A DNA stretch of 64,000 nt from an uncultured Alphaproteobacteria bacterium (GCA_902540805.1 CACBON010000004.1:25320-89319); one strand, 5' to 3'. Positions 9,661-64,000 are shown, counted from the stretch's first letter. Numbers and translations are program-made. Notes: generated by a model not told the origin, from the sequence alone.

Positions 9661-9663
9661 TTA

Positions 9664-10296: not shown

Positions 10297-10297
10297 A

Positions 10298-10654: not shown

Positions 10655-10655
10655 G

Positions 10656-38182: not shown

Positions 38183-39652
38183 ATGAAGTATTTAACAGAA
38201 GCTCTTACTTTTGATGATGTTCTCATTGTACCAGCAAAATCATCAATCAGACCGTCTGAAGCTAACATTTCAACCAAGTTAACAAAGAATATAAAACTCA
38301 ATGTTCCTTTAATTTCAGCAGCTATGGATACTGTGACGGAATCCAATCTAGCTATTAAAATAGCGCAGATGGGTGGACTCGGAATCATTCATAAAAATCT
38401 AAATTTTGTTGATCAAGCTTTGGAGGTATCGAAAGTAAAAAGGTTTGAATCTGGGATGGTAATAAATCCAGTAACGATTTCACCTGACGAGACTCTAAAT
38501 AATGTTTTAAAAAAAAAAGAAAAATATAATATTTCCGGAATTCCTGTTGTAGATAATAAATCACAGAAGTTAGTTGGTATACTGACTAATAGAGACATGC
38601 GATTCGCAAAGAATCTTCAGCAGAAAGTAAGTACTTTAATGACAAAAAATAATTTAGTAACTGTCTCTGAAGATATTTCTATGGATAATGCACAAAAACT
38701 TTTACATGAACATAGAATTGAAAAGTTATTAGTAGTAGATAAAAATTTTAAATGTGTGGGTTTAATAACGGTTAAAGACATTGAAAAGGCAGAACAATTT
38801 CCTTTTGCCTCAAAAGATAAGATGGGAAGACTACTAGTTGGAGCGGCTGTTGGTGTTGGAGAGAGCGAAGGCATAAACAGGATTAGAACCCTGGAAAAGG
38901 CTGGTGTTGATGTTATAGTAATTGACACCGCTCACGGTCACTCTGAAAATGTATTGGAAACACTAAAAATTTCTAAAAAAGAATTCCCGAAACTACCTGT
39001 TGTTGTTGGCAACATAGCTACAGCGGAAGCAGCGAAAGAACTAATACAAAATGGCGCTGACGCTTTAAAAGTTGGAATTGGTCCGGGCTCTATTTGTACA
39101 ACAAGAATTATTGCAGGTGTTGGTGTGCCTCAGTTGCATGCAATTTCCGAAACGTTTAAAATAGCAAAAAAAAATAATATACCTATTATTTCAGATGGTG
39201 GCATAAAATATTCAGGTGATATCGCTAAAGCAATAGCATTTGGTGCTGATGTGGTTATGATAGGTTCATTATTTGCTGGAACAGACGAGTCACCAGGAGA
39301 AATATTTCTATCAAACGGAAGAACATACAAATCATACAGGGGTATGGGCTCACTGGGTGCTATGGGAAGCGGTTCAGCAGATAGATATTTTCAAGAGGAA
39401 ATAATAAATGATGATAAGTTTGTTCCAGAAGGAGTGGAGGGAAGGGTTCCATATAGAGGAAGTGTTGTTAAAATAATTGAACAACTGATCGGAGGTTTAA
39501 AAGCTTCGATGGGTTACACTGGTAATAAAACTATTAAAGATTTTAAAAATAAAACAAAAGTTATAAAAATTACCTCAGCAGGTCTTAATGAAAGTCACGT
39601 ACACAGTATTTCAATAACAAGGGAATCTCCAAATTATCAGCTTAACAAATGA
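38183..39652 (+). CDS. guaB: Inosine-5'-monophosphate dehydrogenase
   Basis: 489 aa with a CBS pair insert, catalytic [11 protein letters not shown] loop and GGIKYSGDI block. Confidence 0.98.
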
Positions 39653-41199
39653 ACGAGTCAATCGTAATAATTGATTTTGGATCACAGGTTACAAAGCTAA
39701 TCGCAAGAAGAATTCGAGAGTTCGGAGTTTTTAGCAACATAATACCTTTTAACCAAGTTACAAAAAATTTATTTAATAATAATTCTATAAAAGGAATTAT
39801 TTTCTCAGGTGGTCCAAAATCAGTTCATGAAAAAAACTCACCCAAGATTGACGACTATATCTACGAACAAGAAATCCCAATTTTGGGTATTTGTTACGGA
39901 CTTCAATTAATTGCCAAACAATTTGGAGGAAAGATAACTCCGTCAAAAGACAGAGAATTTGGTAAAACACAAATAAAATTAAACAAAAAGTCTCCGCTTC
40001 TTGAAAATGTTCTTATTCCAAACAAACAAGTTCAAGTGTGGATGAGTCACTCAGATAAAATTTCAGTAATTCCAAATAGTTTTGAAAAGATAGCATCCTC
40101 AGACAATTGTGAGTTTGCTGTAATTCAAAATCAAAAAAAAAAACTTTACGGCGTTCAATTTCATCCAGAGGTGGTTCACACCATTGGAGGAAAAAAAATA
40201 CTTAAGAATTTTATAAGAAATATTTGCGGATGTTCTGCAAAATGGAATATGAAATTTTTCAAAAAAAAAATAATTGAAGATATAAAAAAGCAAGTGGGAC
40301 AAAATAAAGTAATATGTGGATTGTCAGGGGGTGTTGATTCAACAGTTACAGCCGCCTTAATAAATTCTGCAATTGGAAAAAATCTAATTTGTGTTTTTGT
40401 TGATACTGGTCTTATGAGAGAAAACGAAGGAAAGGAAATAAAGAATCTTTTTCAAAAAAATTTTAAAATCAAATTGAAGGTAATTAATAGTGCTAATGAT
40501 TTTTTTTCAAAACTAAAAGGTAAAAGTGATCCTGAAAAAAAAAGAAAAATTATTGGAAAAGAATTTATAAAAATTTTTGAAAGATTTGCACTTGAACAAA
40601 AAAATGTAAAGTTTTTAGCTCAAGGAACACTTTATCCGGACGTAATAGAATCACTTTCAAAAGTTGGTAAGGCCTCAGTTACAATTAAATCTCATCATAA
40701 TGTTGGTGGATTGCCAAAAAAAATGAAACTGAAATTAATCGAACCGTTATCAGAATTATTTAAAGATGAAGTTAGGTTATTAGGTAAAGAACTCAACGTT
40801 CCAGAAGCTTTTTTGAATAGACATCCTTTTCCTGGTCCGGGCCTAGCAATAAGACTTTTGGGGTGTGTGGATGAAAAAAATATAAAAATTCTCCGAAAAG
40901 CTGATTCAATTTTTATTAAATTAATAAAAGAAGAGGGTTTGTATGACAAAATTTGGCAAGCATTTTGTGTTTTACTTCCAATAAATACCGTCGGTGTAAT
41001 GGGTGATAATAGAACCTATGAGAAAATTTGTGTGCTAAGAGCAGTAACGTCTATTGATGGGATGACGGCTGAAACTTATAAATTCAACGATGATTTTATA
41101 AAGCGTTGTGCAAATGAAATTATTAATCGTGTGCCTGGAATAAATAGAGTTTGCTACGATATTACATCTAAGCCACCTGGAACAATTGAATTTGAATGA
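39649..41199 (+). CDS. guaA: GMP synthase (glutamine-hydrolysing)
   Basis: GATase domain (GICYGLQL, HPE), SGGVDS PP-loop and C-terminal dimerisation domain ending in TIEFE. Confidence 0.98.
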   Translation: MNESIVIIDFGSQVTKLIARRIREFGVFSNIIPFNQVTKNLFNNNSIKGIIFSGGPKSVHEKNSPKIDDYIYEQEIPILGICYGLQLIAKQFGGKITPSKDREFGKTQIKLNKKSPLLENVLIPNKQVQVWMSHSDKISVIPNSFEKIASSDNCEFAVIQNQKKKLYGVQFHPEVVHTIGGKKILKNFIRNICGCSAKWNMKFFKKKIIEDIKKQVGQNKVICGLSGGVDSTVTAALINSAIGKNLICVFVDTGLMRENEGKEIKNLFQKNFKIKLKVINSANDFFSKLKGKSDPEKKRKIIGKEFIKIFERFALEQKNVKFLAQGTLYPDVIESLSKVGKASVTIKSHHNVGGLPKKMKLKLIEPLSELFKDEVRLLGKELNVPEAFLNRHPFPGPGLAIRLLGCVDEKNIKILRKADSIFIKLIKEEGLYDKIWQAFCVLLPINTVGVMGDNRTYEKICVLRAVTSIDGMTAETYKFNDDFIKRCANEIINRVPGINRVCYDITSKPPGTIEFE

Positions 41200-42023
41200 A
41201 AAAGTTATGCTTAATTTGCAGTGGATCTGTAAAAGAGATAAATAGTTACTCACATAAATGTAAGAAATGTGGTTTTTATTTTTCAACTCTTTCTTCAGGT
41301 TATGGTCAGGATGTAAAAGGTCTTGAACATATTCGTAAACAAAATTTCAAGAAAATATTAAATATCATTATGAATTTAAAAAAAAATCCCAAAATTCTAG
41401 AAATTGGTTCAGGCGATGGTTATTTCATTGAAGAATGTATTAATTTTGATATTTCTATATTCGGATCTGAAGCGTCTTTGGACAGTTTAAAGAGTTTAAA
41501 AAAAAAATTTAAAAACAAGGTAGAAATATTTAATCTTTCTCTTCCAGAATCGATAATTAAAAAAACAAAAACTAGATTTGATTTTATTGTTTTTAATGAT
41601 GTTTTTGAACATCTAACTAATCTACATAAAGTTATAAATACTTCGCAACTGGCTTTAAAGAAAGATGGCATTATTATAATAAACTCTCCAACATCTGACG
41701 GAATAATTTTTAATTTTTCGTTATTTTTAATGAACTTAGGTTTTACAAAGTTTTATGATAGACTCTGGCAGAAGAATATGAATTCACCTCATTTAAGTTA
41801 TTTCAATAAAAAAAACTTAAATCTATTATTTTCTAAACATAATTTTTATGAATTTATCTCAGGTAATCTTAATTCATTGGATATTAATAATTCCTCAAGG
41901 TTTAATAATCTCTTTGATTCCGTTTTTAAAAGAATTGTCTTTTCAATTTTCTGTTTTTTATTTTTTTTCTTTCAAAAATTTTTGCCAAAAGACATTATGT
42001 TTGTTTTTTTTAAACATAAGTAA
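41196..42023 (+). CDS. Class I SAM-dependent methyltransferase with N-terminal zinc ribbon
   Basis: CLICSG...CKKCGFYF zinc ribbon, ILEIGSGDGYF motif I and IVFNDVFEHL motif. Hydrophobic C-terminal tail. Its start overlaps the guaA stop (ATGA). Confidence 0.7.
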   Translation: MKKLCLICSGSVKEINSYSHKCKKCGFYFSTLSSGYGQDVKGLEHIRKQNFKKILNIIMNLKKNPKILEIGSGDGYFIEECINFDISIFGSEASLDSLKSLKKKFKNKVEIFNLSLPESIIKKTKTRFDFIVFNDVFEHLTNLHKVINTSQLALKKDGIIIINSPTSDGIIFNFSLFLMNLGFTKFYDRLWQKNMNSPHLSYFNKKNLNLLFSKHNFYEFISGNLNSLDINNSSRFNNLFDSVFKRIVFSIFCFLFFFFQKFLPKDIMFVFFKHK

Positions 42024-42157
42024 TTGGTAAATAAACAAATACAGATGAAATTCAAATTGTCTTTAAATCAATGACTTACAATCAAATGCAACTGATTCAC
42101 AATCTGTTGAACTTCGGTTAATGATCGAGCGAGTTGGACTCGGCGTACAAAATAAAG

Positions 42158-43576
42158 TTAACTTAGTAAGCTCTTCTCAATAGTTTTCGTTAACTCTTCG
42201 ATATGTAATAAGTGCATCCCAAGACCGTTACCTACTTTTGCATTTCCATTGTAAAAGGAGTCACCTATAGGATAAATTATTTTATTATGATATTTAGGCA
42301 AATCTTTATAAAATAATTTTACTCTGGGAATATATGCGAAAGGAGGCTCTAAATAAATTTGGCTGTCTATGGGTTTGTTTTTCAATATAAGATTTATCAA
42401 TTCAATTATTCTGCTGTCAATTTTTAATTTAATCTTTTCTTCAAGTTGTGCAAATTCATTGATATGAATTCTGTTTTTAAGTAAATCTTGAAATATTTTT
42501 ATATTCGATTCTTTTATATTAATTATAATTAGAACTTCATTAAGTTCTTTAATTAACTTCCCCATCCAAACATAAAAAAGATTATCACGATTATTTTTAT
42601 TTACGTAATCAGTTATTATAGTGTTTAAATTTTCTGTAATTCCAACTATTTTGAATTGATAATTAATTATCGGTTTATCGAGAAAAAACGGATAATGATA
42701 ATTATTTTTTTCTTTCAAGAGAAATGACAAATTCTCAGTGTTATTTTCATTGGTCGGTATATTAAGTAAAATTTCTTTTGTTTCATGCTCAGGATAATAT
42801 TGATAGATTTTTCCACCAGTCGCATCAATTATTAAATCAATGCCGGAGTTAATTATAAGTTCATCATAAGGATCTTTTTTAAAAAGAAATTTAACATCAA
42901 TTTTTTTGCATGACTGTAATAATAGTACTTCCATCATATTTAAATTTACTCCGATGTAATCACTATTAGAAAACCAGTCGAAGACTTCTGTTATGCTCTT
43001 GTCTACTTTAGAATTAAAAAGAAATTTTGGAAGATTTGTTAACCAATTTCTAGAATAAATTTCTTTTACACGCGGTTCTTGAATTCTGTTATCACAAACA
43101 AGTATATTAACTAAACCACCAAGTTTTTTTTTTAAATTGTTAGCAAAAAAAAGACCACAACAACCAGCGCCTATTACAACGATGTTAAATTTTTGATTTG
43201 ACGAAATAAATTTTTTTGCCAACTGAAGTGCTTGTTCATCTGTTTGGTTTTCAAAACTATCTTTTAAAAGACTACAGTTACTCATGGCAGTTATTTCTTT
43301 CATAAGTTTCCATCTCGACTCAACTGTTACAAGACTTTGCAATTTCTGAAAAAGACAAAATTCTGCTTGTGTTAATGGGAGGTTATAATTCTTTTTGTCT
43401 TTTTTAAACTTCCCTATATTGCAACTTTTTACTTCAAGGTTATCAATTAAAAATTCTTTATCATGACTTAGTGAATATATCCAGCCCATTGATGCTGTTT
43501 TAAGTGATTGAGATAATTGTTTAAAAAAAAAATTTTTGAGTTCTAAATTTAGAATTAATCTTTTCTTTTCTTCCAT
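42158..43576 (-). CDS. Hypothetical FAD/NAD(P)-binding (Rossmann GxGxxG) protein with ~130-aa N-terminal extension
   Basis: NIVVIGAGCCGLFFANNLKKKLGGLVNILVCDNR is a beta-alpha-beta dinucleotide fold. The C-terminal IGDSFYNGNAKVGNGLGMH resembles the GD motif of flavoprotein monooxygenases or oxidases. I recognise no closer family. Confidence 0.45.
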   Translation of the reverse strand: MEEKKRLILNLELKNFFFKQLSQSLKTASMGWIYSLSHDKEFLIDNLEVKSCNIGKFKKDKKNYNLPLTQAEFCLFQKLQSLVTVESRWKLMKEITAMSNCSLLKDSFENQTDEQALQLAKKFISSNQKFNIVVIGAGCCGLFFANNLKKKLGGLVNILVCDNRIQEPRVKEIYSRNWLTNLPKFLFNSKVDKSITEVFDWFSNSDYIGVNLNMMEVLLLQSCKKIDVKFLFKKDPYDELIINSGIDLIIDATGGKIYQYYPEHETKEILLNIPTNENNTENLSFLLKEKNNYHYPFFLDKPIINYQFKIVGITENLNTIITDYVNKNNRDNLFYVWMGKLIKELNEVLIIINIKESNIKIFQDLLKNRIHINEFAQLEEKIKLKIDSRIIELINLILKNKPIDSQIYLEPPFAYIPRVKLFYKDLPKYHNKIIYPIGDSFYNGNAKVGNGLGMHLLHIEELTKTIEKSLLS

Positions 43577-43676
43577 TTGAATTGTATTTTTTAATTAGCT
43601 AAATTTTAATTGATTTTTATTGAGTTTGCTCCAATTTTTTTTTAAAAAATTGGTATGTAAATTGCTTTACAATTGT

Positions 43677-44885
43677 ATGGGTAATTTAAATCCTAATTAT
43701 TATAATAAATTTCAATGTTTGGGCTCTGAATGTATTGAAACATGTTGTCAGGGTTGGAACATTGATGTAGATCATAATTCTCACTTTAAGTTACATGATT
43801 TAAGTAGAAAATATGGTGAAAAGATTGAAAAGTTTTTAACAAAAAGTACAGATCCAACACATGATAAGTTTTCATATATTAATATGAAAAAGAATGGTTT
43901 CTGTCCTTTTTTAGATAAAAACAAACTATGTGGTATTCAAAAAAAATATGGTGAAAATTATTTACCAGAAACATGTAAAAATTTTCCTAGGAGAAAAGTT
44001 AATTTTGACACAATTCAAATTAAAACTCTGTCTCTGGCTTGTCCAGAAGTAGCAAGATTATGTCTTACTCAGAAAGACTCGATGAAAGTTTTTTTAAATG
44101 AAAAAAAAGAGGTTAATTTTTTTAAAATAGTTCCTGATCATTTGCACAATTCTTACACAAGAGTAGGTGAGCAATTATTTAATAGAATTTACAATCTTTT
44201 CAAGAAAAAAAAATTGCACATTCCAAATTTACTTTTTATTTGCGAGAGTATTCTAAATGAACAAAAAAATCTTGAGGTTAATCCTGACAAAATAGATAGT
44301 GTTTTAGATTTTTTGGTCAATGAATTTAAAAAATTAGATTTTCTAAATTTTGATAGATCAACACTAAAACTTAATTTTTTGAATGATCTGAATATTTTCT
44401 TTCAAAAAACACTACCAGAAAGTTCGTTGAGTGGAATATTATCAAAAACTCAGAATGAATTAGTTGAAAAATTTTCTAATCTCGAAGAAGCATCAAATAA
44501 TTTTAAAATTATTAATAAAATGAAATATGAAAACTTTGAAAAAAAAAATTATAGAATTTTTAGGAATTATTTTTTAAATGAAATATTGGGACATGCCCAA
44601 ATTTTTACCAATCAAACACCTAATTGCAGAAATAGATTCTATTTGACAATTTTATGCGCAATAGTCTCAAAAATTATAACCATTGGAAATATTTCAGAAA
44701 ATCCAAATAAAAATCATAAAGAAGATATTTTGATAAACTCAATACAAAAAGTAGCTAAAAATTTTTCAGCTTTCGTTAACGTTGATGAAAATCAAGAATA
44801 CAAATTTGATTCAGAAATTTGTGCGATGCTAGAAAAAATTGATAAAAATAATATCTTTAACGCTCTGTTCTTGCTTTTTGATTAA
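43677..44885 (+). CDS. FliB-like protein lysine-N-methylase family protein (Cys-rich CxxxCxxxCC domain)
   Basis: FQCLGSECIETCCQGWNIDVD, FCPFLDKNKLCGIQKKYG, ETCKNFPRR and LSLACPEVARL follow the order and spacing of the Salmonella FliB flagellin lysine methylase N-terminal region. Start set at the ATG at 43677; a TTG at 43620 is possible. Confidence 0.6.
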   Translation: MGNLNPNYYNKFQCLGSECIETCCQGWNIDVDHNSHFKLHDLSRKYGEKIEKFLTKSTDPTHDKFSYINMKKNGFCPFLDKNKLCGIQKKYGENYLPETCKNFPRRKVNFDTIQIKTLSLACPEVARLCLTQKDSMKVFLNEKKEVNFFKIVPDHLHNSYTRVGEQLFNRIYNLFKKKKLHIPNLLFICESILNEQKNLEVNPDKIDSVLDFLVNEFKKLDFLNFDRSTLKLNFLNDLNIFFQKTLPESSLSGILSKTQNELVEKFSNLEEASNNFKIINKMKYENFEKKNYRIFRNYFLNEILGHAQIFTNQTPNCRNRFYLTILCAIVSKIITIGNISENPNKNHKEDILINSIQKVAKNFSAFVNVDENQEYKFDSEICAMLEKIDKNNIFNALFLLFD

Positions 44886-45089
44886 AAAGTAACCTCTAAT
44901 CTAAAATAACTTAAATCACTCCACTTTAATATATGACCCTACCCCACGATTCTAGAGTTATAGATTAAACATTAATAGAAATATTATGTATTTTTTTTTT
45001 ACAAGTAATTGATAAATTTAAAAAATTACAGTTGAGATTTTCAAAATATTATTCCATAAACAACTTGATGCTATAATATTTGATATGAA

Positions 45090-45980
45090 TCATTTTTTAG
45101 AAAATATATTTTCTACCACTTCACTTGAAGAAAAATGTCCGTATTTGCATGCTAAATCAAAGTTTGGTTCCATGAAAATATCATTTATATCTTCTGGGAT
45201 TTCTTCAAAATTCTTTTTGAACTCCTCTTTTATAAAAAAAGCATTCGATCCGGTATGAGAATTACAACAAATTAATTTATAATCGTGATTCTTAAAGAGC
45301 TTGTTAAAACTTTCCAACGAAGCGCCATAATTATCGTCTAACTCCCAGTTATGAAATTGGTTATACTTCATTATAAATTCAATTGGTGGAAAAAACTTTG
45401 GATTATATTCAACTATAAAAAGCTTGGGGTAAATTTTATTGTCCAGTAATTTTTTGGTAAAATGAAAATCATTTCCATCTAAGTCTAGCGAAATTACATC
45501 TAGATTTTTAATGTTCATATTCTTTAAATTATTTTTTGTAATCTCTAATATATTATCTAGAGTAATCCAGTTTTTTGAATAATTAAATCTACTACCTGGT
45601 TTGTATTTAAAATTTAAATCTTCACCACCAACCCAGAAACCTTTCCAGCCCAAAGCTGCAAGTAAAATTGTATTATTTTCAAGACCATCTCCAACTCCAT
45701 ATTCTGCATAACTCCCTTTTTTAATATTTAATCTTTTTATAATCTCGAATGTAATCCCATCTTCATCAGTTTGAGAAAAACATTTTCTCCCATATTTATT
45801 AAATGGATTTTTACAATTTTCTTTTCTTGATACATAACCGTTTTTAACAATTAGATCTTTAATAATTGTTAAGAGTTGGCTCTGTAAATTTGATTGATCT
45901 ACTATTTTTCTATTTTCTATTATAAGTTTATTAATAGAAGAAACTGTAGAGTCATTTGATAACAAATTATTATGATCCAT
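45090..45980 (-). CDS. Putative FkbM-like SAM-dependent methyltransferase
   Basis: SQTDEDGITFEII...GSYAEYGVGDGLENNTILLAALGWKGFWVGGE resembles the SQxGED...E.GAxDG..SNT...GW.G pattern of FkbM-type methyltransferases. Weak call. Confidence 0.4.
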   Translation of the reverse strand: MDHNNLLSNDSTVSSINKLIIENRKIVDQSNLQSQLLTIIKDLIVKNGYVSRKENCKNPFNKYGRKCFSQTDEDGITFEIIKRLNIKKGSYAEYGVGDGLENNTILLAALGWKGFWVGGEDLNFKYKPGSRFNYSKNWITLDNILEITKNNLKNMNIKNLDVISLDLDGNDFHFTKKLLDNKIYPKLFIVEYNPKFFPPIEFIMKYNQFHNWELDDNYGASLESFNKLFKNHDYKLICCNSHTGSNAFFIKEEFKKNFEEIPEDINDIFMEPNFDLACKYGHFSSSEVVENIFSKK

Positions 45981-46056
45981 AATTGAATAACAGCAAATTA
46001 TATGCCATGTGATAATAGTAAAAATAAGAAATTTTTTAAAATTTAATAACTTATAA

Positions 46057-47358
46057 TTACTTACAGTTTGTTCTTAATTTCAAAAACTCTTTAATTTCTT
46101 CTAAAGGATGATGCCAGTTATTTAATTCTTTTTGTTTGAATTTTTTAACGCATTTATAGAGTACACCGTTATTTTTTTCATTCCACCTAGGATCATGTAT
46201 TTTTGATAGCAGAAGAAGGGTTTTTTTATTTAACATTGCTGATAAATGTACAAGAGATGTACATGAAGAAATTACAAGATCCATTCGAGATAAAAAAGAT
46301 GCTGTGTCAGTGAAATCATCCAGATAATTACTTAAATCATGAAGGTTACTAATTTGATCAATTATCTCATGATCTTTAACATTTGTTATTTTTTGTAATA
46401 CAAAAAAATTAATGTTCTTATTATTAAGTATTTGTTTTAAAAAATCCAATCGAACAGACCTAAAAGAATTTCTCGTTTGACTGCATCTGCCGCTCCATGC
46501 AATTCCGACATTAAGTTTCTTGTTATCCATTAATTTAAGAATTTTTTTAGGATATTTTTTATAATCTTTTGTAAGATTGATATCATCGACTTTTAAAGGC
46601 TTTCTTTTAATTTTTGATTTATAAAAAAGAAAGAGCAAACTCATACTATAAATTTTGTAACTATACAAATTCAAGTCGTTTTTATTAACATTCTTTATGA
46701 TTTTAATATTTTTTAACCCTTTAATATTTCTGATAAAATTATATAATTTATCACTCACCAAATATGTAATACTATAACCTAATAGTGAAAGTCTTGATAG
46801 GTAATGACAAATCATAAGTTGATCTCCAAAACCTTGTTCACCAATAATTAGAATTTTATTATTCTTATTTATTTGTTTTAAATCCGTGACCTCTTGAAGA
46901 TGGTTTTCTTTATAATTTTCATGTAATAGCAAACATCTTTCTTTATCCCTTTCTTCATACAATAATAATCCTTTACAGTAATCTCCTGAAGTTTGTTCTA
47001 AGATTGAAAGATTCAATTTAGCCCATTCAGAATTTTTATCAATTTCTAGAGTCCTTTTATAAAATTCTTTTGCCATTTTAAATTTATTTGATTCATAATA
47101 AAAAAGACCAAGGGCACATGTAGCATTAGGATTTTTCGGATTTATTTTGTATGCAGTTTCAAAACACATAAATGACATTTCGAAATCAAGGTTCTTTAGG
47201 TGAGCAAATCCAAGTTCTACCCAAATATTGGAATCATGAGGATATTTTTGTAAAATATTACTAAATAAGTTAATCCCTTCAACTAAATCACCTTGTGAAT
47301 ACAAAATGTAGGGTTTTGAGTTAAGGATATCTGAGTAAGTATTATTAAACCTTTCCAT
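46057..47358 (-). CDS. TPR-repeat protein fused to a glycosyltransferase family 9 (heptosyltransferase)-like domain
   Basis: The N-terminal ~130 aa are TPR-like. The C-terminal region has IIGEQGFGDQLM, VGIAWSG and a TSLVHLSAML block resembling GT9 donor-binding motifs. Paralogous to 61615..63255. Confidence 0.6.
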   Translation of the reverse strand: MERFNNTYSDILNSKPYILYSQGDLVEGINLFSNILQKYPHDSNIWVELGFAHLKNLDFEMSFMCFETAYKINPKNPNATCALGLFYYESNKFKMAKEFYKRTLEIDKNSEWAKLNLSILEQTSGDYCKGLLLYEERDKERCLLLHENYKENHLQEVTDLKQINKNNKILIIGEQGFGDQLMICHYLSRLSLLGYSITYLVSDKLYNFIRNIKGLKNIKIIKNVNKNDLNLYSYKIYSMSLLFLFYKSKIKRKPLKVDDINLTKDYKKYPKKILKLMDNKKLNVGIAWSGRCSQTRNSFRSVRLDFLKQILNNKNINFFVLQKITNVKDHEIIDQISNLHDLSNYLDDFTDTASFLSRMDLVISSCTSLVHLSAMLNKKTLLLLSKIHDPRWNEKNNGVLYKCVKKFKQKELNNWHHPLEEIKEFLKLRTNCK

Positions 47359-47580
47359 TTCTATATTTGTTCAAGTATTATGCCAAAATTTCTTATGGTT
47401 ATTAAATTAGAACATACCCAAGATTTTATTTAGTAATTTTCAATAATATAGATTAAATGAAGTGCAGGCTTTTTTATAAATAGTGGCATAATTATTGCTC
47501 ACTATTTAATTATTATAATGAAATTAAGATTAACGAATAGAAAGTAAATTTATTATAATTTTTGCTCCAAAGGTACATTT

Positions 47581-48345
47581 ATGAAAGCAGTGATTTTAGC
47601 AGGTGGATTAGGAACTAGAATTTCTGAAGAAACTCATTTAAAACCCAAACCAATGATTGAAATTGGAGGCAAACCAATAATTTGGCACATTATGAAACAA
47701 TATTCTCAGCATGGAATTAATGATTTCATAATTTGTTGTGGATATAAGGGGTATTTAATAAAAGAATATTTTTATAATTATTCACTTCATTTAACTGATA
47801 TCACCATAAATACAAAGAACAACCAGACTTGGTTCCATGATAATTATGCTGAAGATTGGAATGTAACATTGGTAGATACTGGCGAAAAAACAATGACAGG
47901 TGGAAGACTTAAGAGAATCTCAAGGTATTTAGATAGTGAAGAAGATTTCTGTTTTACCTATGGAGATGGTATTGGTGATATAAACATCTCTAAAGCAATT
48001 AATGAACATAAAAAAAGTGGAAAGTTAGCTACCGTCACGGCAACTCAACCCCAAGGAAGATTTGGTTCACTTTCGATAGATAAGGGGAAAATAAAAAGTT
48101 TTAAAGAAAAACCAGCTGAGTGGATAAATGCAGGATTTTTTGTATTGAAAAAAAAGGTTATTGACAGAATTGATGGAGATAATTGTGCATGGGAAGAAAA
48201 ACCTATGGAGAGTTTAGCGTCTGAGGGACAATTTTCTGTGTATTTTCACAATGGATTTTGGCAACCAATGGACACATTAAGAGATAAAATAAAATTGGAA
48301 AAATTATGGAACAATGGTGATGCTCCCTGGAAAACGTGGTCATGA
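47581..48345 (+). CDS. rfbF: Glucose-1-phosphate cytidylyltransferase
   Basis: MKAVILAGGLGTRISEETHLKPKPMIEIGGKPIIWHIMK is near-canonical RfbF/DdhA. 254 aa. Confidence 0.92.
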   Translation: MKAVILAGGLGTRISEETHLKPKPMIEIGGKPIIWHIMKQYSQHGINDFIICCGYKGYLIKEYFYNYSLHLTDITINTKNNQTWFHDNYAEDWNVTLVDTGEKTMTGGRLKRISRYLDSEEDFCFTYGDGIGDINISKAINEHKKSGKLATVTATQPQGRFGSLSIDKGKIKSFKEKPAEWINAGFFVLKKKVIDRIDGDNCAWEEKPMESLASEGQFSVYFHNGFWQPMDTLRDKIKLEKLWNNGDAPWKTWS

Positions 48346-49409
48346 ATAATTCCTTCTGGAATAATAGAAAGGTTTTCATAACAGGACATACTGGTTTCAA
48401 AGGTAGTTGGTTGACTTTATGGTTAAAAAGTCTTGGAGCAAAGATTTGTGGTTATGCTTTAAAACCTGAGTCTAAGAAATCTCTTTTTTATGAAGCCGAC
48501 GTTTCAAAAGGCATAGAATCAAATTTTGCAAATATCCTAAATTACAAAGTTTTATGTGAAAAAATTAACAATTTTTCTCCAGAAGTTGTTTTTCATCTTG
48601 CTGCTCAACCATTAGTGAAAAAGTCTTATCTTAATCCATTAGATACCTTTTCAACTAATATTTCTGGAACAATAAATGTACTAGAATCACTAAGATATTC
48701 TAAAAATATCAGATCCGTCGTAATTGTCACAACGGACAAAGTTTATGAAAATAAAGAAATTAAAGAGGGATACAAAGAGACTGATTCACTGGGTGGTTTT
48801 GATCCGTATAGTAGCAGTAAAGCATGTTGTGAAATTATAACAAATTGTTATAGATCTTCTTTTTTTCAAAATAAAAATTTAAAAATTGGGATTGCCACAG
48901 CTAGAGCTGGAAATGTAATTGGTGGGGGAGATTATTCAGAGAATAGATTAGTACCGGATATATTTAGATCTATAAAGGAGAAAAAAGCAATAAAAGTAAG
49001 AAATATAGGATCTACTAGACCATGGCAACATGTCTTAGAAGCATTAAATGGATACATAATTCTGGCAGAAGCGCTTTACCATAATCATAAAAAGTACTCT
49101 GAAGCGTGGAATTTTGGGCCAAGATCTCAAGACTGTAAAAAAGTTAAATGGATACTTAATGAATTTCAAAAAAAACATAATTTTGATATTATTGATACTT
49201 CTAATCATATTAATGATCATGAATCAAAATCTCTAAATCTGGATATTTCAAAATCCATCAAAAAACTTAGTTGGAAGCCATATTTACCTATTAATGAAGC
49301 AATACAACTTACGTCACAATGGTTCAAGCAAAAAGAAGGTGGAAAATTACCATCGCAAATCATTAAAGATCAAATAAATTATTATGAAGAAAAAAAAATG
49401 GTAATGTAG
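48336..49409 (+). CDS. rfbG: CDP-glucose 4,6-dehydratase
   Basis: FWNNRKVFITGHTGFKGSWLTLWL N-terminus and the YSSSKA catalytic motif. 357 aa, overlaps rfbF by 10 nt. Confidence 0.9.
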   Translation: MVMNNSFWNNRKVFITGHTGFKGSWLTLWLKSLGAKICGYALKPESKKSLFYEADVSKGIESNFANILNYKVLCEKINNFSPEVVFHLAAQPLVKKSYLNPLDTFSTNISGTINVLESLRYSKNIRSVVIVTTDKVYENKEIKEGYKETDSLGGFDPYSSSKACCEIITNCYRSSFFQNKNLKIGIATARAGNVIGGGDYSENRLVPDIFRSIKEKKAIKVRNIGSTRPWQHVLEALNGYIILAEALYHNHKKYSEAWNFGPRSQDCKKVKWILNEFQKKHNFDIIDTSNHINDHESKSLNLDISKSIKKLSWKPYLPINEAIQLTSQWFKQKEGGKLPSQIIKDQINYYEEKKMVM

Positions 49410-49430
49410 GCTGGTTCAGAACTTAATTTA

Positions 49431-50522
49431 CTAAAGACTGTTATAAAACTTAAAAGTTTTTATTATGGAATTTTCAAGAGTTGTAAAGACTTTTAAGTTA
49501 TTTTTTTTTGCTAAGCTTATATCGGGAACGTAGGCAGTTGGTAAATATTGTGGTTTGTTTTCAGTTAAAATCTGAATATTTCTTTTAGTAACTTTTTTTA
49601 CTAAACAAGCTACATCATACAATGAAAAAGCCTCATCTGATCCAACATTTATAGTGAGGAATTTCTTTTCACTTAATAAAATTTTTAATAACCAAATTAC
49701 AAGATCAGATGTATACATATAACTTCTTACTGAAGATCCATCACTGTGAATAACTATATCCGAGTTAGTTGTTACAGACTTTATAAAATTACCTATAGCA
49801 AAGTGAGTATCAATTGGAAGCCATGGACCAACAAATGAAAAGCATCTGGCAATTTTAATCGTTTTTTCATTTGTCTCTGTTGCCCAATAATTGCAAAGTA
49901 GTTCTGCAGTTTTCTTAAAAATACCACTGGCATCGTTAGTATTTGAAGAGTCTAAGTAAAATCCAGAACTTTCAATAATTTTTGTGAAGTTTTTTGCAGG
50001 CTGTTTTCCGTATACTGAACCTGATGAAATATAAAGTATATTATTGATTCTTTTTTTATTAGCAAAATTTAAAATGTTTTTAGTACCATTAATTACTACA
50101 TCTGATAGGTTAGAAATATTTTGGTGTGCTTCAATAGTAGCTTCTGTAGCGCCATGAATAATATGAGTAAAATCATTTTCATTTGTCGTGAAATTTACAA
50201 TATTTCCTTTAATAAAAAAAAGTTCTTTATAATTTCTTACTTCAGGAAACTTGTTTTTAAACTTACTTGGATTTCTTGATAAAACAAAAATTTTAATATT
50301 TAAATTTAATGATGCATTTAAATGTAAAAGACTACTCAAAATAGATTTTCCAAAAAATCCTGTTCCTCCAGTTATCAATATTTTTGCGTTTTTAAGTTTT
50401 ATAATTGATGTTTTTAATTCAGATAGAATAAATTTTAAATCATCATTACAAATATTAAAAATGCTGCGTTTTTCAGGCTTCACACAGATTAGTATGGCAT
50501 TATAATTGCAGCAAATAAACAC
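49431..50522 (-). CDS. NAD-dependent epimerase/dehydratase-family (extended SDR) sugar-nucleotide reductase or epimerase
   Basis: KILITGGTGFFGKS Rossmann motif. The start is uncertain: the 45-aa leader before the Rossmann motif is atypical, and 50522 leaves only 16 nt to the divergent gene. Confidence 0.75.
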   Translation of the reverse strand: MFICCNYNAILICVKPEKRSIFNICNDDLKFILSELKTSIIKLKNAKILITGGTGFFGKSILSSLLHLNASLNLNIKIFVLSRNPSKFKNKFPEVRNYKELFFIKGNIVNFTTNENDFTHIIHGATEATIEAHQNISNLSDVVINGTKNILNFANKKRINNILYISSGSVYGKQPAKNFTKIIESSGFYLDSSNTNDASGIFKKTAELLCNYWATETNEKTIKIARCFSFVGPWLPIDTHFAIGNFIKSVTTNSDIVIHSDGSSVRSYMYTSDLVIWLLKILLSEKKFLTINVGSDEAFSLYDVACLVKKVTKRNIQILTENKPQYLPTAYVPDISLAKKNNLKVFTTLENSIIKTFKFYNSL

Positions 50523-50538
50523 TTTTTAAACAAATTAA

Positions 50539-52443
50539 ATGGATAAAATTAACTATAATCAAGAACCTCCAATAAATAATCCGGAAGAAAAAAACTTTAG
50601 TTTCAGAGGATTAAATTTTAAACAAAAAGAAGATACTCTTTCATATCTTCTATTTGATTATCTCTCAAAAATTGGAACAAAAGCTGTTTTTCTTGTGCCT
50701 GGAGGTGGAAACATGTTTCTTGTCGATGCAGTAGGAAGACATCCAGATATCAAATGTATTTGTACTCATAATGAACAATCTGCTGTAATTGCTGCCGAAG
50801 CATACTCAAGACTTAATGAGGGGATAGGGGTTGCGTTGGTAACAACTGGTCCAGGTGCTACAAATTCAGTTACAGGTATAGCAGGATCGTGGATTGATTC
50901 TATTCCTCTTTTAGTTATTTCAGGGCAGGTTAAAATTGATGATATCAATTTTGAAAAAAAATTGAGGCAAAAAGGCCCTCAAGAAGTTGATATAGTTTCC
51001 ATGGTTAAAGGTATAACAAAGCATTCTGAAACAATTACAGATCACAAAAATTTTCTAAAAAAACTAAGCAAAATTATAAATCTTTCAAGAAATGGAAGAC
51101 CAGGGCCATGTCTAATAGATATCCCTCTAGACATTCAATCTCAAAAAGTCAAAATACCTTTCGACTACCAACCGTTCCTAAAGAATGAAATAATTAAAGT
51201 TAAAAAACAAATACCTAATGAATTAATACGTAAGATCACAAAATCCAAGAAACCACTTTTTTTAATGGGACATGGTATAAAAAGTTCAAAATCACAAAAA
51301 TTAGCTATAGAACTGATTAAGTATTCAAATATCCCTGTGTGTGTTACCTGGCCAATGATAGATCTGCTAGCTTTTGATGATCCACTTTACGTCGGAAGGC
51401 CTGGGGTAGTAGCAAAACGAAATGCTAATTTAACAATACAAAATTGTGATTTATTAATTAGTATAGGAGCAAGATTAGATAGAATTGTTACGGCTTTCAA
51501 TTCAGATAATTTCGCAAAAAATGCAGAAATCTATTGTATAGATATTGACAAGGCTGAACTAAAGAAGCATCCAAAAAGATTTAAAACAATCAAATTTGAT
51601 TGTAAATATTTTTTGTCAGACCTATTGATTAAACTAAAGAATAATAAATATAAAAATAAAAATACTAAATGGATTGATTTTTGTAAAAATCTCAAAACAA
51701 AGTACGGCAAAAGTGAGTCAAGAAAAAAAAAGAGTATGAGTATTTATAATACTGTAAATTTTTTATCCAAAATAATACCACCTAATAGCACCATCGTTAC
51801 TGGAAGTTCTGGTCTATGTATTGAAGTTTTTTATACACATTTTGAAAATAAAAAGAACCAAAAAACATTTCTTACAACAGGTTTAGGTTCAATGGGTTAT
51901 GGATTTCCGGCTTTAGTTGGTGCCAGTACACAAATCCAAAAAAAATTATTTTTGTATGAAGGCGATGGAAGTGCGATGATGAACCTTCAAGAGTTGCAAA
52001 CTTTAAAAACTAACAATTGTAAAGCAAAAATCTTTCTCATAAATAATCAAGGTTATGTATCCATAAGGAATACCCAAAAAAACTATTTTAGAGGAAGGTT
52101 TGTAGGAATTAACAAAAAATCGGGGATGGAAACTTCGTCTATATCGAAAATTGCCAAGGCAATTGGTATTAAATCATATGTAGTAAAGAAATACTCTGAT
52201 TTTAATAAAATCAAAAAGACCTTAGACAAAGACGAACTTATTATTTATGAAATTTTTGTAAATAAAGATGAGAAATTAATTCCTAAATGTTCGGCATATA
52301 AATTGGACAATGGGACAATGGTTTCATCACCAATTGAAGATATGACACCTTTAATAGAGATTGAAGAATTAAAAAAAATTATCCCAGGCCCAATCGATCA
52401 GAGATCATATTCAATGAGAGAAGTTAGAAATGAAACAACTTAA
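50539..52443 (+). CDS. Thiamine-diphosphate-dependent enzyme, acetolactate-synthase-like (YerE-like candidate)
   Basis: Three-domain ALS layout. N-terminal PYR domain (LVTTGPGATNSVTGIAGSW) and ThDP motif GDGSAMMNLQELQT...NNQGY. Located inside a CDP-sugar cluster. Confidence 0.85.
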   Translation: MDKINYNQEPPINNPEEKNFSFRGLNFKQKEDTLSYLLFDYLSKIGTKAVFLVPGGGNMFLVDAVGRHPDIKCICTHNEQSAVIAAEAYSRLNEGIGVALVTTGPGATNSVTGIAGSWIDSIPLLVISGQVKIDDINFEKKLRQKGPQEVDIVSMVKGITKHSETITDHKNFLKKLSKIINLSRNGRPGPCLIDIPLDIQSQKVKIPFDYQPFLKNEIIKVKKQIPNELIRKITKSKKPLFLMGHGIKSSKSQKLAIELIKYSNIPVCVTWPMIDLLAFDDPLYVGRPGVVAKRNANLTIQNCDLLISIGARLDRIVTAFNSDNFAKNAEIYCIDIDKAELKKHPKRFKTIKFDCKYFLSDLLIKLKNNKYKNKNTKWIDFCKNLKTKYGKSESRKKKSMSIYNTVNFLSKIIPPNSTIVTGSSGLCIEVFYTHFENKKNQKTFLTTGLGSMGYGFPALVGASTQIQKKLFLYEGDGSAMMNLQELQTLKTNNCKAKIFLINNQGYVSIRNTQKNYFRGRFVGINKKSGMETSSISKIAKAIGIKSYVVKKYSDFNKIKKTLDKDELIIYEIFVNKDEKLIPKCSAYKLDNGTMVSSPIEDMTPLIEIEELKKIIPGPIDQRSYSMREVRNETT

Positions 52444-53329: not shown

Positions 53330-53333
53330 CTCA

Positions 53334-61509: not shown

Positions 61510-61614
61510 AAATTCTTATAGATGTACAGCAAATGTTATGCCACACTAAATAAAAACGCTAGGTGTGATTCTATTTTATTTTTTAATATTTACTTTTTTA
61601 AATCTTGAATAAAA

Positions 61615-63354: not shown

Positions 63355-64000
63355 TCAAAATTTGGATCTAGCCTGCTCCACCTTGGACGCTACTAAGCTT
63401 AAAAGCAAATAATAGCTTCCTTGCCACCACCCAAGCCAAAAAGAAAAGTTTACAAGAGAAGACCCCCAAAAATAAGCATTTAAGAATATAAGAAATATTT
63501 TTGATTCTAGTGAATTACAAAGTTTCAAAACTCTTATATTTATAATTAAAATGAATAAAATAAACAAAGATGACCCGATTGTACCTGTTTCTAAAATCAA
63601 CTCCACAATAAAGTTATGCGGATGACTTGGAATAAAGTTCATATCACCAGTATTGTAATCATTGTTTTTTAAACCAATTTCTCGTTGACTTCCTTCAATG
63701 AAATTTGACGTGTCAGGACCATAACCAAACAAAAATTTATTTTTGATTTTTTCAATTGAGAATCCCCATATAAACTGACGATGTATGTCAACGATTTGTG
63801 GTGAAATAGAGTGTTGAAAATTATCAATGGAAATCCTGTCAAACTTTTGAGGCAGTTGTTTGGAAAAAATAATTAATAAAGGAGTTATCAAAACAATAAA
63901 AATTATTAATACGGATAAGTTAATAGATATATTCTTCAAAAATTTTCTTAAGATAAAAAAAATAAAACAGATAAAAATCCCGCTTATTACACCAAGAATT
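63355..64000 (-). CDS. O-antigen ligase/polymerase (Wzy_C-domain) family membrane protein, C-terminal part (ORF open to window edge)
   Basis: GYGPDTSNF...IPSHPHNFIVELILETGTIGS loop and helix are typical of the O-antigen ligase family. By my manual reading the frame stays open upstream of the annotated start to position 64000, but that reading was 1 nt out of register with the supplied ORF track beyond ~63900. The gene probably begins outside the window. Confidence 0.55.
   Translation of the reverse strand, partial: ILGVISGIFICFIFFILRKFLKNISINLSVLIIFIVLITPLLIIFSKQLPQKFDRISIDNFQHSISPQIVDIHRQFIWGFSIEKIKNKFLFGYGPDTSNFIEGSQREIGLKNNDYNTGDMNFIPSHPHNFIVELILETGTIGSSLFILFILIINIRVLKLCNSLESKIFLIFLNAYFWGSSLVNFSFWLGWWQGSYYLLLSLVASKVEQARSKF

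What the first reader, a model, noticed from the sequence alone, without database searches (positions are those of the whole stretch)
42158..44885. FliB-like protein-lysine methylase divergently paired with an unknown flavoprotein in a lineage not expected to have flagella
Seen: ORF 43677..44885 has the FliB N-terminal cysteine architecture (F-x-C-x-GS-x-C-x3-CC-x-GW; CPFLD-x3-LC; TC-x2-FPR; LACPE). Established: FliB methylates surface lysines of flagellin. Inference: the rest of the window looks like SAR11, which is described as non-motile, so the substrate would have to be another surface protein such as a pilin or an abundant periplasmic or outer-membrane protein. Its divergent neighbour (472 aa) has a GxGxxG Rossmann fold, a GD-type flavoprotein motif and a novel ~130-aa N-terminal domain. 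That neighbour could hydroxylate or oxidise the same substrate; acting as an amine-oxidase-type demethylase is pure speculation. The pair shares a ~100-nt divergent promoter region.
Basis: partly seen in the sequence, partly recalled or inferred. Interest (0 to 1): 0.7.

Follow-up and report, generated by a model that had tools for sequence, protein, structure and literature searches.

The report
FliB-type methylase–flavoenzyme cassette in SAR11
A SAR11-type marine bacterium, from a group regarded as non-motile, carries a gene of the family that methylates flagellin lysines, held in a conserved two-gene cassette with an undescribed flavin oxygenase and preceded by a sigma-54-type promoter inside its cell-surface island, so it probably decorates a surface component other than flagellin.

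Summary
ORF 43677-44885 is a full-length FliB-family protein: NCBIfam NF038110 scores 190 bits against a cut-off of 85, and the CX4CX3CC [4Fe-4S] motif and all eight cysteines are present. Its divergent neighbour (42158-43576) has a flavoprotein monooxygenase or halogenase fold, not an amine-oxidase fold. It belongs to a small sequence-orphan family (422 representatives) whose members often carry TPR repeats.

The pair is a real unit. It recurs in six different gene neighbourhoods, with a gap of about 100-107 nt and parallel divergence. More distant SAR11-type FliB genes lack this partner. In four loci a PhyH-like dioxygenase lies beside FliB or within 3 kb.

Every SAR11-type FliB gene I examined has an invariant sigma-54-type -24/-12 motif 11-13 nt before its start codon, which implies a leaderless mRNA. 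The window has five such motifs against 0.1 expected, all inside the surface-glycan island between guaA and a Wzy_C gene.

No flagellin or pilin gene lies in the window or the related loci. The whole genome could not be checked.

My best reading is a cytoplasmic Fe-S/SAM N-methylase plus a tailoring oxygenase acting on a non-flagellin surface protein, or less likely a glycan. I rate it a new variant of a known kind, of moderate interest.

The parts
43677..44885 (+). FliB-family [4Fe-4S]/SAM N-methylase homologue (402 aa). Cys-rich N-terminal domain at residues 1-140 and a divergent all-helical C-terminal domain at residues 159-401.
   Evidence: NF038110 at 190 bits against a cut-off of 85. CX4CX3CC plus 8 invariant Cys. 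AlphaFold model pLDDT 86.6 with no PDB fold match. N-terminal domain alone 157 bits, C-terminal domain alone no hit.
42158..43576 (-). Flavoprotein of the monooxygenase/halogenase fold (472 aa), member of a small sequence-orphan family that is often fused or adjacent to TPR repeats.
   Evidence: No Pfam or NCBIfam hit above cut-off. GxGxxG, DATGG and GD motifs invariant. pLDDT 89.6. Foldseek top hits VioD, KMO, TetX, Rox, StyA, MalA' and RadH at E down to 3e-8, TM 0.3-0.5. 422 representatives among 1.84 billion proteins. TPR fusions.
43577..43676 (.). 100-nt intergenic region between the divergent genes. Conserved at 79% mean column identity across seven aligned intergenic regions from five distinct contexts.
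43651..43665 (+). Sigma-54-type -24/-12 element TGGTATGTAAATTGC, 11 nt before the FliB ATG. That spacing predicts a transcription start at the A of the ATG, i.e. a leaderless mRNA.
   Evidence: GG and GC are invariant, with fixed spacing, in every SAR11-type FliB locus examined regardless of the upstream gene.
45090..45980 (-). 296-aa protein with no family hit. It has a class-I methyltransferase-like motif (EYGVGDGLENN), which I read by eye. It co-occurs with FliB in L011 and L016.
   Evidence: Its own sigma-54-type element is at 46007-45993, 12 nt before the ATG.
45993..46007 (-). Sigma-54-type element TGGCATATAATTTGC upstream of ORF 45090-45980.
46057..47358 (-). TPR plus GT9-like (GT-B) glycosyltransferase (433 aa). 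A paralogue lies at 61615-63255. It is the divergent partner of FliB in L011 and L016.
41196..42023 (+). Class I SAM methyltransferase (Methyltransf_23), the first gene of the island after guaA. Also present in L011 and L016.
47484..47498 (+). Sigma-54-type element upstream of the rfbF-rfbG (CDP-glucose) genes.
50495..50509 (+). Sigma-54-type element upstream of the operon encoding a ThDP enzyme, a methyltransferase and a radical SAM/SPASM protein.
61529..61543 (-). Sigma-54-type element upstream of the minus-strand operon that starts with the GT2 gene (60352-61509) and runs through the aminotransferase (59030-60364) towards the PseF/KdsC-like and NeuB-like genes.
39649..41199 (+). guaA, the conserved left boundary of the island. 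The same boundary is seen in L011, L012, L013 and L016.
63355..63939 (-). Wzy_C (O-antigen ligase / O-oligosaccharyltransferase family) gene, the right boundary of the island. In the minimal islands of L011, L012 and L016 it lies directly against FliB; L013 has a short ORF of the same cluster at that position, where the contig ends.

Best explanation
The pair is a two-gene tailoring cassette within the cell-surface diversification island of a SAR11-type bacterium.

The FliB homologue is a cytoplasmic enzyme; neither protein has a signal-peptide-like N-terminus by eye. It holds a [4Fe-4S] cluster on its CX4CX3CC motif and uses S-adenosylmethionine to N-methylate amino groups. Following the only characterised member of the family, the likeliest targets are lysine epsilon-amines of a protein that is later exported or displayed. 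That protein is not flagellin. The conserved N-terminal domain would do the chemistry, and the divergent helical C-terminal domain would choose the substrate.

The partner binds FAD and uses O2 to hydroxylate (or halogenate) the same substrate. Other lineages fill this role with a PhyH-like Fe/2-oxoglutarate dioxygenase.

FliB is transcribed from its own sigma-54-type promoter as a leaderless mRNA. The same promoter type precedes several glycan-synthesis operons of the island, so surface decoration would be switched on as a regulon.

Shown: family membership, motifs, folds, conservation of the pair, and the promoter motif with its enrichment. Inferred: the catalytic activities, a shared substrate, a protein target, sigma-54 dependence and the leaderless start.
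For: - FliB membership and intact Fe-S motif.
- Catalytic N-terminal domain conserved while the C-terminal domain is divergent: 36% identity to E. coli fliB over the first 136 aa only, and the C-terminal domain alone gives no HMM hit.
- Partner has a flavin monooxygenase/halogenase fold with all three dinucleotide/flavin motifs.
- The pair is kept as a unit while its flanks change: guaA/methyltransferase in the window, a VTT-domain gene in L005, an acyltransferase in L006 and L096, a GDSL lipase in L010, a MacB ABC transporter in L092, and sulfotransferases in L096. The gap stays at about 100-107 nt and the two proteins diverge in parallel.
- A second, unrelated oxygenase (PhyH-like, E 1.2e-6) lies directly beside FliB in L012 and L013 and within 3 kb in L011 and L016.
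- Neighbouring TPR-glycosyltransferases and TPR-fused homologues of the partner point to protein recognition, as in FlmG, whose TPR domain binds flagellin.
- Sigma-54-type motif: 5 in the window against 0.10 expected, and 30 in 281 kb of SAR11-type DNA against about 1 expected. It sits 11-13 nt before every FliB start.
- RpoN is abundant in 27-30% GC marine alphaproteobacterial contigs up to 1.5-1.6 Mb.
- No hit to defence-system models and no copy on viral contigs.
Against: - No candidate substrate gene was found. There is no flagellin, pilin or other obvious structural protein in the window or in about 280 kb of related loci.
- The island looks like an LPS/O-antigen locus, with CDP-sugar, nonulosonate and Wzy_C genes. 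A glycan amine is therefore a real alternative target.
- The smallest islands (L012, L013) have FliB with only an FkbM methyltransferase, a PhyH-like enzyme and (in L012) Wzy_C. They have no TPR protein.
- About a third of SAR11-type FliB contexts have no oxygenase adjacent to FliB (L001/L015, L007, L014).
- Distant homologues of the partner sit away from any FliB.
- FliB activity has been shown for one enzyme only.
- rpoN could not be shown in this genome, and the freshwater SAR11 strain LSUCC0530 has none annotated (PMC12113158).
- One FliB gene (L092) starts with GTG, which fits a leaderless mRNA poorly.
Confidence: 0.45

Rival explanations
1. The FliB homologue methylates an amino group of a surface glycan or lipid rather than a protein. 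Possible targets are an amino sugar, a nonulosonic-acid substituent or an amino acid amide-linked to a sugar. The oxygenase would tailor the same sugar.
For: The cassette lies inside an island of CDP-hexose, ThDP-dependent, radical-SAM, NeuB-like and PseF/KdsC-like genes and several methyltransferases, bounded by a Wzy_C ligase-family gene. The same sigma-54-type promoter precedes FliB and the sugar operons. In minimal islands FliB lies directly against Wzy_C.
Against: The only characterised FliB acts on protein lysines (PMC8598068). TPR modules around the cassette suggest protein recognition. Minimal islands contain no sugar-nucleotide genes at all. Flagellin glycosylation islands of flagellated bacteria contain the same kinds of sugar genes; this last point is my own knowledge.
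Confidence: 0.25
2. The two genes are neighbours without a shared substrate. Both are independent tailoring genes that happen to travel together in a recombination-prone island.
For: FliB relatives at 33-56% identity lack this partner. Distant homologues of the partner occur away from FliB, next to a TPR gene or next to sulfatases. Only FliB has the sigma-54-type element.
Against: The pair is retained in six different flanking contexts with the same orientation, the same gap of about 100-107 nt and matching divergence. The intergenic DNA is 79% conserved. A different oxygenase occupies the equivalent position in other lineages.
Confidence: 0.15
3. The organism, or the lineages that carry the cassette, does make a flagellum or a flagellin-like filament, and the protein is a conventional flagellin methylase.
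For: Low-GC marine alphaproteobacterial contigs up to 1.5 Mb carry rpoN beside strongly conserved PomA-like and MotB-family stator genes. PomA is 87-91% identical between contigs, and the MotB-family model scores 277 bits against a cut-off of 259. Sigma-54 control, FliB, TPR-glycosyltransferases and nonulosonate synthesis are all typical of flagellar systems; that is my own knowledge.
Against: SAR11 isolates are described as non-motile and lacking flagellar genes (established knowledge, not tested here). No flagellin-probe hit was found in the window, in any SAR11-type locus or in any rpoN locus. The window's 41 kb of core genes hold no flagellar gene. The link between the rpoN/stator contigs and this genome is unproven. 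Stator-like pairs also exist without flagella (my own knowledge).
Confidence: 0.07
4. The FliB-like protein uses its Fe-S/SAM chemistry for a reaction other than N-methylation, for example a radical-type modification.
For: [quoted passage not shown] The fold has no solved relative. The NCBIfam hit rests mostly on the N-terminal Cys-rich domain.
Against: The full-length alignment covers 362 of 373 profile positions at more than twice the equivalog cut-off. All eight cysteines are conserved.
Confidence: 0.08

Closest known systems
FliB, flagellin lysine-N-methylase of Salmonella enterica (NCBIfam NF038110; Wang et al. 2021, PMC8598068)
   Same: Same length class (about 400 aa). The CX4CX3CC [4Fe-4S] motif and all eight conserved cysteines are present. 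The HMM score is more than twice the equivalog cut-off. The protein is predicted cytoplasmic. The fold is unrelated to Rossmann or SET methyltransferases and has no PDB match.
   Different: No flagellin gene is nearby and the host lineage is regarded as non-flagellated. The C-terminal domain is not recognisable on its own. The gene sits in a surface-glycan island, carries a sigma-54-type leaderless promoter and is locked to a flavoenzyme gene.
Class A flavoprotein monooxygenases (VioD, kynurenine 3-monooxygenase, TetX, rifampicin monooxygenase) and flavin-dependent halogenases (MalA', RadH)
   Same: Same fold by Foldseek (probability 1.0, E down to 3e-8). GxGxxG, a DG-like motif (DATGG) and a GD motif are in the right order.
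   Different: 8-16% identity and TM only 0.3-0.5. There are no significant Pfam, NCBIfam or PDB sequence hits. The protein has an extra conserved helical N-terminal domain of about 130 aa. Homologues frequently carry N-terminal TPR repeats, and one has them at the C-terminus. Whether it is a monooxygenase or a halogenase, and its substrate, are unknown.
Flagellin modification islands with FlmG-type TPR-glycosyltransferases and nonulosonic-acid synthesis (Caulobacter crescentus; Ardissone et al. 2020, PMC7591256)
   Same: The gene set is similar: TPR N-terminal plus GT-B C-terminal glycosyltransferases, NeuB-like and PseF-like genes, and a FliB-family methylase.
   Different: No flagellin gene is present. 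Sequence homology of the TPR-glycosyltransferases to FlmG was not tested. The island also has O-antigen-type features, namely CDP-hexose genes and a Wzy_C boundary gene.
Sigma-54 (RpoN) -24/-12 promoters, consensus TGGCAC-N5-TTGCW
   Same: GG and GC are invariant with the exact spacing. The sites match the IUPAC core pattern TGGYAY-N5-TTGC and are positioned immediately upstream of genes or operons.
   Different: The distance to the start codon (11-13 nt) implies leaderless transcripts. No sigma-54 regulon turned up for SAR11 in the papers I could search. rpoN and an activator were not shown for this genome.

Membership tests
FliB / flagellin lysine-N-methylase (NF038110) | Whole-protein HMM score above the curated equivalog cut-off | tested here: met
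   190.3 bits against a cut-off of 85, E 7.3e-56, profile positions 1-362 of 373. SAR11-type relatives score 189-201 bits.
FliB / flagellin lysine-N-methylase (NF038110) | CX4CX3CC motif that ligates the [4Fe-4S] cluster | tested here: met
   C14-LGSE-C19-IET-C23C24. Invariant in 27 relatives. The motif is defined in PMC8598068.
FliB / flagellin lysine-N-methylase (NF038110) | Eight conserved cysteines | tested here: met
   C14, C19, C23, C24, C76, C85, C100 and C122 are invariant. All align with the cysteines of the E. coli PGAP-annotated fliB.
FliB / flagellin lysine-N-methylase (NF038110) | Recognisable C-terminal FliB_C domain (PF27117) | tested here: inconclusive
   Many homologues carry precomputed PF27117 hits, often flagged faint or weak. 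The window's C-terminal 262 aa alone hit nothing. The local Pfam copy gave no hit.
FliB / flagellin lysine-N-methylase (NF038110) | A flagellin substrate encoded in the genome, typically adjacent | tested here: not met
   No flagellin-probe hit in the window or in any SAR11-type locus within 10 kb either side. Whole-genome absence could not be tested.
FliB / flagellin lysine-N-methylase (NF038110) | SAM-dependent epsilon-N-methylation of lysine | not testable with these tools
   This needs biochemistry.
Class A flavoprotein monooxygenase / flavin-dependent halogenase superfamily | Dinucleotide-binding beta-alpha-beta with GxGxxG and an acidic residue at the end of strand 2 | tested here: met
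   IGAGCCGL at 133-140 and LVCDNR at 158-163. Model strand 130-135, helix 139-155, strand 156-162.
Class A flavoprotein monooxygenase / flavin-dependent halogenase superfamily | DG-type and GD-type flavin motifs | tested here: met
   DATGG (251-255) and PIGDS (436-440) followed by GN.K.GNGL..H. The family-wide invariant and near-invariant columns are listed.
Class A flavoprotein monooxygenase / flavin-dependent halogenase superfamily | Overall fold | tested here: met
   183 PDB matches at E of 0.001 or better; the 50 listed are all flavin monooxygenases or halogenases, with probability 1.0 and TM 0.3-0.5.
Class A flavoprotein monooxygenase / flavin-dependent halogenase superfamily | Significant hit to a curated sequence model of the family | tested here: not met
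   The best Pfam and NCBIfam hits are far below their cut-offs. A PDB profile search matches only the GxGxxG segment, at E of 0.004 or worse.
Flavin amine oxidase / LSD1-type demethylase | Amine-oxidase fold | tested here: not met
   No amine oxidase appears among the 50 fold matches listed. MAO-A appears only at E 0.08, on the dinucleotide-binding motif alone.
Sigma-54-dependent promoter | -24 GG and -12 GC with canonical spacing and flanking consensus | tested here: met
   TGGYAY-N5-TTGC before every SAR11-type FliB gene. 5 in the window against 0.10 expected; 30 against about 1 expected in 281 kb.
Sigma-54-dependent promoter | rpoN and an enhancer-binding activator in the same genome | not testable with these tools
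   RpoN was found in abundant 27-30% GC marine contigs but was not linked to this genome. LD12 strain LSUCC0530 has none annotated. NtrX is known in Pelagibacter ubique (PMC3870248).
FlmG-type TPR protein glycosyltransferase | N-terminal TPR domain plus C-terminal GT-B domain | tested here: met
   TPR Pfam hits at residues 18-115. A weak GT9 hit at 348-386 (E 0.099, below cut-off). The FlmG architecture is described in PMC7591256.
FlmG-type TPR protein glycosyltransferase | Sequence homology to FlmG and a protein acceptor | not tested

The most novel reading that the evidence does not exclude
Non-flagellated Pelagibacterales keep a flagellin-style protein-decoration toolkit: a FliB lysine methylase, TPR-glycosyltransferases, nonulosonic-acid synthesis and sigma-54 control. 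On this reading they have re-aimed it at another abundant exported or surface protein. FliB plus an interchangeable oxygenase (a flavin monooxygenase or a PhyH-like dioxygenase) would then generate methylated and hydroxylated lysines. This would be a strain-variable surface code, expressed as a leaderless sigma-54 regulon, in the ocean's most abundant bacteria.
Probability: 0.2. Interest if true: 0.8.

Novelty: new variant of a known kind. Interest (0 to 1): 0.55.

Why it matters
SAR11 hypervariable islands are thought to set phage and grazer susceptibility, yet most of their genes have no assigned chemistry.

A FliB-type Fe-S methylase locked to an oxygenase would add protein or glycan N-methylation and hydroxylation to that repertoire. 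It would also show that the 'flagellin' methylase family has substrates beyond flagellin, which bears on how NCBI's annotation pipeline names these proteins.

The sigma-54-type leaderless promoters give a concrete, testable handle on how a genome with very few regulators switches its surface genes.

The partner protein defines a small, uncharacterised, TPR-associated branch of the flavin monooxygenase fold.

Tried and rejected
- Local Pfam scan of the FliB-like protein gave no hit. The relevant model, PF27117, appears only in precomputed annotations.
- Amine-oxidase or demethylase reading of the partner: rejected on fold.
- Generic sigma-70 promoter and terminator scan of 41900-45200: at chance level, 25 against 22.7.
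- Inverted repeats in the intergenic region: only AT-rich palindromes, with no arm conserved across loci.
- Rfam scan of the window found only one tRNA, so this island is not the rRNA-bounded HVR2 arrangement described for SAR11 isolates.
- The second TPR protein (61615-63255) is a paralogue of the TPR-glycosyltransferase, not a TPR-fused relative of the partner.
- Defence-system models gave no hit for the pair.
- Viral contigs hold no relative of either protein.
- Exact look-up of the window's partner protein on contigs found nothing on record.
- Literature searches for FliB, lysine methylation, rpoN or sigma-54 in SAR11/Pelagibacter found nothing relevant, apart from the statement that LD12 lacks an annotated rpoN.
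- I tried to tie rpoN to the window's own genome through shared contigs. A protein identical to the window's RecA is on a 1.58-Mb contig, while rpoN was seen on different contigs of 1.52 and 1.62 Mb, so no link was established.
- PDB sequence searches of ORF 45090-45980 and of the PhyH-like protein gave nothing significant.


Full report
**Observation.**
- The window is AT-rich (GC 0.25-0.36) and has one tRNA and no rRNA.
- Positions 1-41199 encode housekeeping genes: purC, purB, map, a queuosine set, formate dehydrogenase, recA, alaS, icd, psd, pssA, acrB, guaB and guaA.
- From 41196 to the end of the window lies a cell-surface island. It holds methyltransferases, TPR-glycosyltransferases, CDP-glucose genes, a ThDP enzyme, a radical SAM/SPASM protein, NeuB-like and PseF/KdsC-like genes, an aminotransferase, a GT2 glycosyltransferase and a Wzy_C gene.

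**The FliB-like protein.**
- ORF 43677-44885 hits NCBIfam NF038110 (flagellin lysine-N-methylase) at E 7.3e-56, 190 bits against a cut-off of 85, across 362 of 373 profile positions.
- Salmonella FliB is a SAM-dependent enzyme whose oxygen-sensitive [4Fe-4S] cluster is held by a CX4CX3CC motif. It has eight conserved cysteines and no similarity to known methyltransferase folds (PMC8598068).
- The window protein has C14-X4-C19-X3-C23C24 plus C76, C85, C100 and C122. All eight are invariant in 27 relatives and align with those of an E. coli protein annotated fliB.
- Its AlphaFold model (pLDDT 86.6) has a Cys-rich N-terminal domain and an all-helical C-terminal domain. It has no PDB fold match.
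- The HMM score comes mostly from the N-terminal 140 aa (157 bits). The C-terminal domain alone is not recognised, and it shows no pairwise similarity to the E. coli protein.
- I read this as conserved chemistry with a changed specificity domain. That reading is an inference.

**The neighbour.**
- ORF 42158-43576 has no curated family and no significant PDB sequence match.
- About 50 word-indexed homologues and 422 representatives in an exhaustive profile search define a small family.
- The family conserves GxGxxG, DATGG and PIGDS..GN.K.GNGL..H, and also an N-terminal helical domain.
- Many members have an N-terminal extension, and eleven of the 49 carry TPR Pfam hits.
- The model (pLDDT 89.6) matches only flavin-dependent monooxygenases and halogenases: VioD, KMO, TetX, Rox, StyA, MalA' and RadH, at E down to 3e-8 and TM 0.3-0.5.
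- It is therefore an FAD oxygenase-type enzyme. It is not an amine-oxidase-type demethylase.

**Is the pair real?** Yes, within one clade.
- The divergent pair recurs in L005 (FliB 86%, partner 92% identity), L006 (63%, 65%), L010 (62%, 67%), L092-L095 (65%, 61%) and L096-L098 (62%, 63%).
- The gap stays at about 100-107 nt while the flanking genes differ each time.
- Metagenome contigs of matching lengths carry members of both 90%-identity clusters.
- SAR11-type FliB genes at 33-56% identity lack this partner.
- In L012 and L013 the divergent neighbour is instead a PhyH-like Fe/2OG dioxygenase. The same gene lies within 3 kb of FliB in L011 and L016.
- So two unrelated oxygenases accompany FliB in different lineages.
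- Distant homologues of the flavoenzyme sit elsewhere: after a separate TPR gene in L090 and beside sulfatases in L091.

**Island architecture.**
- In L011, L012, L013 and L016 the FliB gene lies in a short island after guaA. In L011, L012 and L016 a Wzy_C gene bounds the island and overlaps the 3' end of FliB; in L013 the contig ends at a short ORF in that position.
- The minimal island is: FkbM methyltransferase, PhyH-like enzyme, FliB, Wzy_C.
- The window has the same boundaries with about 22 kb inserted.
- A second chromosomal site, next to a MacB-type ABC transporter and a GDSL lipase, holds FliB in L001/L015, L007, L014 and L092.
- One single-cell genome has FliB at both sites (L011 and L014).
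- Only seven species representatives with SAR11-type names appeared among more than 542 species with a relative, and none is a cultured Pelagibacter isolate. The gene is therefore a flexible-genome trait.

**A sigma-54-type promoter.**
- Aligning the intergenic regions showed an invariant TTGG(T/C)AT-N3/4-(A/T)TTGC block.
- It matches the sigma-54 consensus TGGCAC-N5-TTGCW and lies 11-13 nt before the start codon of every SAR11-type FliB gene, whatever lies upstream.
- With the -12 C placed 11 nt before the ATG, the predicted start is the A of the ATG, giving a leaderless mRNA. This is an inference.
- The window has 5 exact matches to TGGYAY-N5-TTGCW against 0.10 expected. All five are in the island and each precedes a gene or operon.
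- 281 kb of SAR11-type loci have 30 matches against about 1 expected. One of them precedes the TPR gene and flavoenzyme-homologue operon of L090.
- The flavoenzyme gene of the window has no such element.
- No paper I could search links SAR11 to sigma-54, and LD12 strain LSUCC0530 has no annotated rpoN.
- A codon-biased RpoN-box scan of metagenomes, followed by a protein search, found a very microdiverse RpoN family of about 484 aa. It lies on 27-30% GC marine contigs up to 1.5-1.6 Mb, with MAG names such as 'Rickettsiales bacterium'.
- I could not tie rpoN to this genome.

**Flagella.**
- Flagellin probes, written from my memory of FliC and Hag, hit 10 of about 72 non-SAR11 FliB loci. They hit no SAR11-type locus, nothing in the window and no rpoN locus.
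- FliB homologues away from flagellin are common. Examples are Myxococcus, Archangium and an orphan fliB in E. coli beside a tRNA-Sec island.
- The rpoN loci carry adjacent PomA-like and MotB-family stator genes. I record this as an open point and not as evidence of motility.

**Interpretation.**
- I favour (0.45) a cytoplasmic Fe-S/SAM N-methylase acting with a tailoring oxygenase on a non-flagellin surface protein, expressed as part of a sigma-54-type surface regulon.
- The main rival (0.25) is methylation of a glycan amine.
- Lesser rivals are an accidental neighbourhood (0.15), different Fe-S chemistry (0.08) and a hidden flagellum (0.07).
- The cassette is not a known defence system and is not phage-borne.

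**Novelty.**
- Family membership would be assigned automatically by PGAP; one relative is already named that way.
- What is new is the non-flagellar context, the conserved coupling to an undescribed flavoenzyme family, the alternative PhyH-like partner and the sigma-54-type leaderless promoter set.
- I rate it a new variant of a known kind, with interest 0.55.

Noticed in passing
window 43651-43665(+), 45993-46007(-), 47484-47498(+), 50495-50509(+), 61529-61543(-); also L005-L017, L090, L092, L096: Sigma-54-type -24/-12 motifs (TGGYAY-N5-TTGC) are strongly enriched: 5 against 0.1 expected in the window, and 30 against about 1 in 281 kb of SAR11-type DNA. They are confined to the surface island and sit directly upstream of genes, often 11-14 nt before the start codon, which suggests leaderless transcripts.
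   Followed up: yes
L229 2479-7461; L173 5700-10650; L183 3910-8986; L165: Low-GC (27-30%) marine alphaproteobacterial contigs up to 1.5 Mb carry rpoN next to a highly conserved PomA-like and MotB-family stator pair. PomA is 87-91% identical between contigs. Whether these contigs are SAR11, and what the stators drive, is open.
   Followed up: partly
L012 8998-9906(-), L013 8982-9893(-), L011 5856-6767(-), L016 7695-8570(-): In FliB loci that lack the flavoenzyme, a PhyH-like Fe/2-oxoglutarate dioxygenase of about 300 aa lies beside FliB or within 3 kb. An oxygenase of a different fold thus occupies the equivalent place.
   Followed up: partly
window 47581-54800: This stretch holds rfbF, rfbG, an SDR (on the opposite strand), a ThDP-dependent acetolactate-synthase-like enzyme (634 aa), a methyltransferase and a radical SAM/SPASM protein. 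From memory this resembles CDP-linked branched-chain sugar (yersiniose-type) pathways.
   Followed up: no
window 56283-59003: A TylF-type O-methyltransferase, a short NeuB-like synthase (287 aa, below the NeuB and PseI cut-offs) and a fused PseF-like cytidylyltransferase/KdsC-like phosphatase (402 aa). Together they look like a nonulosonic or ulosonic acid branch.
   Followed up: no
L011 and L014 (both from single-cell genome AG-911-L17): One genome carries two FliB paralogues. They are 47% and 33% identical to the window protein and sit at two different island sites: the guaA site and the MacB/GDSL-lipase site.
   Followed up: partly
L089 9102-10316 (E. coli CUPF09, NZ_CP182142.1): PGAP annotates a lone 'fliB' between yicL and a toxin-antitoxin/IS island near tRNA-Sec, far from fliC. 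Only 1 of 5426 complete E. coli genomes holds it at 80% coverage or more.
   Followed up: no
window 41196-42023: The first island methyltransferase hits the PADLOC model mad2 (a methylation-associated defence component) at E 1.8e-12. The match covers only its generic methyltransferase domain, so it is probably not meaningful.
   Followed up: no
window 54806-56296(-): A 496-aa ORF inside the island with no Pfam or NCBIfam hit.
   Followed up: no
window 7841-13237: A compact queuosine cluster on both strands: queG-like, queC, a radical-SAM queE-like gene, queF-like, tgt and queA.
   Followed up: no
L049 9930-9944, L055 9923-9937 (Acidobacteriota): The same sigma-54-type motif lies about 60 nt upstream of FliB homologues in two acidobacterial genomes.
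   Followed up: no
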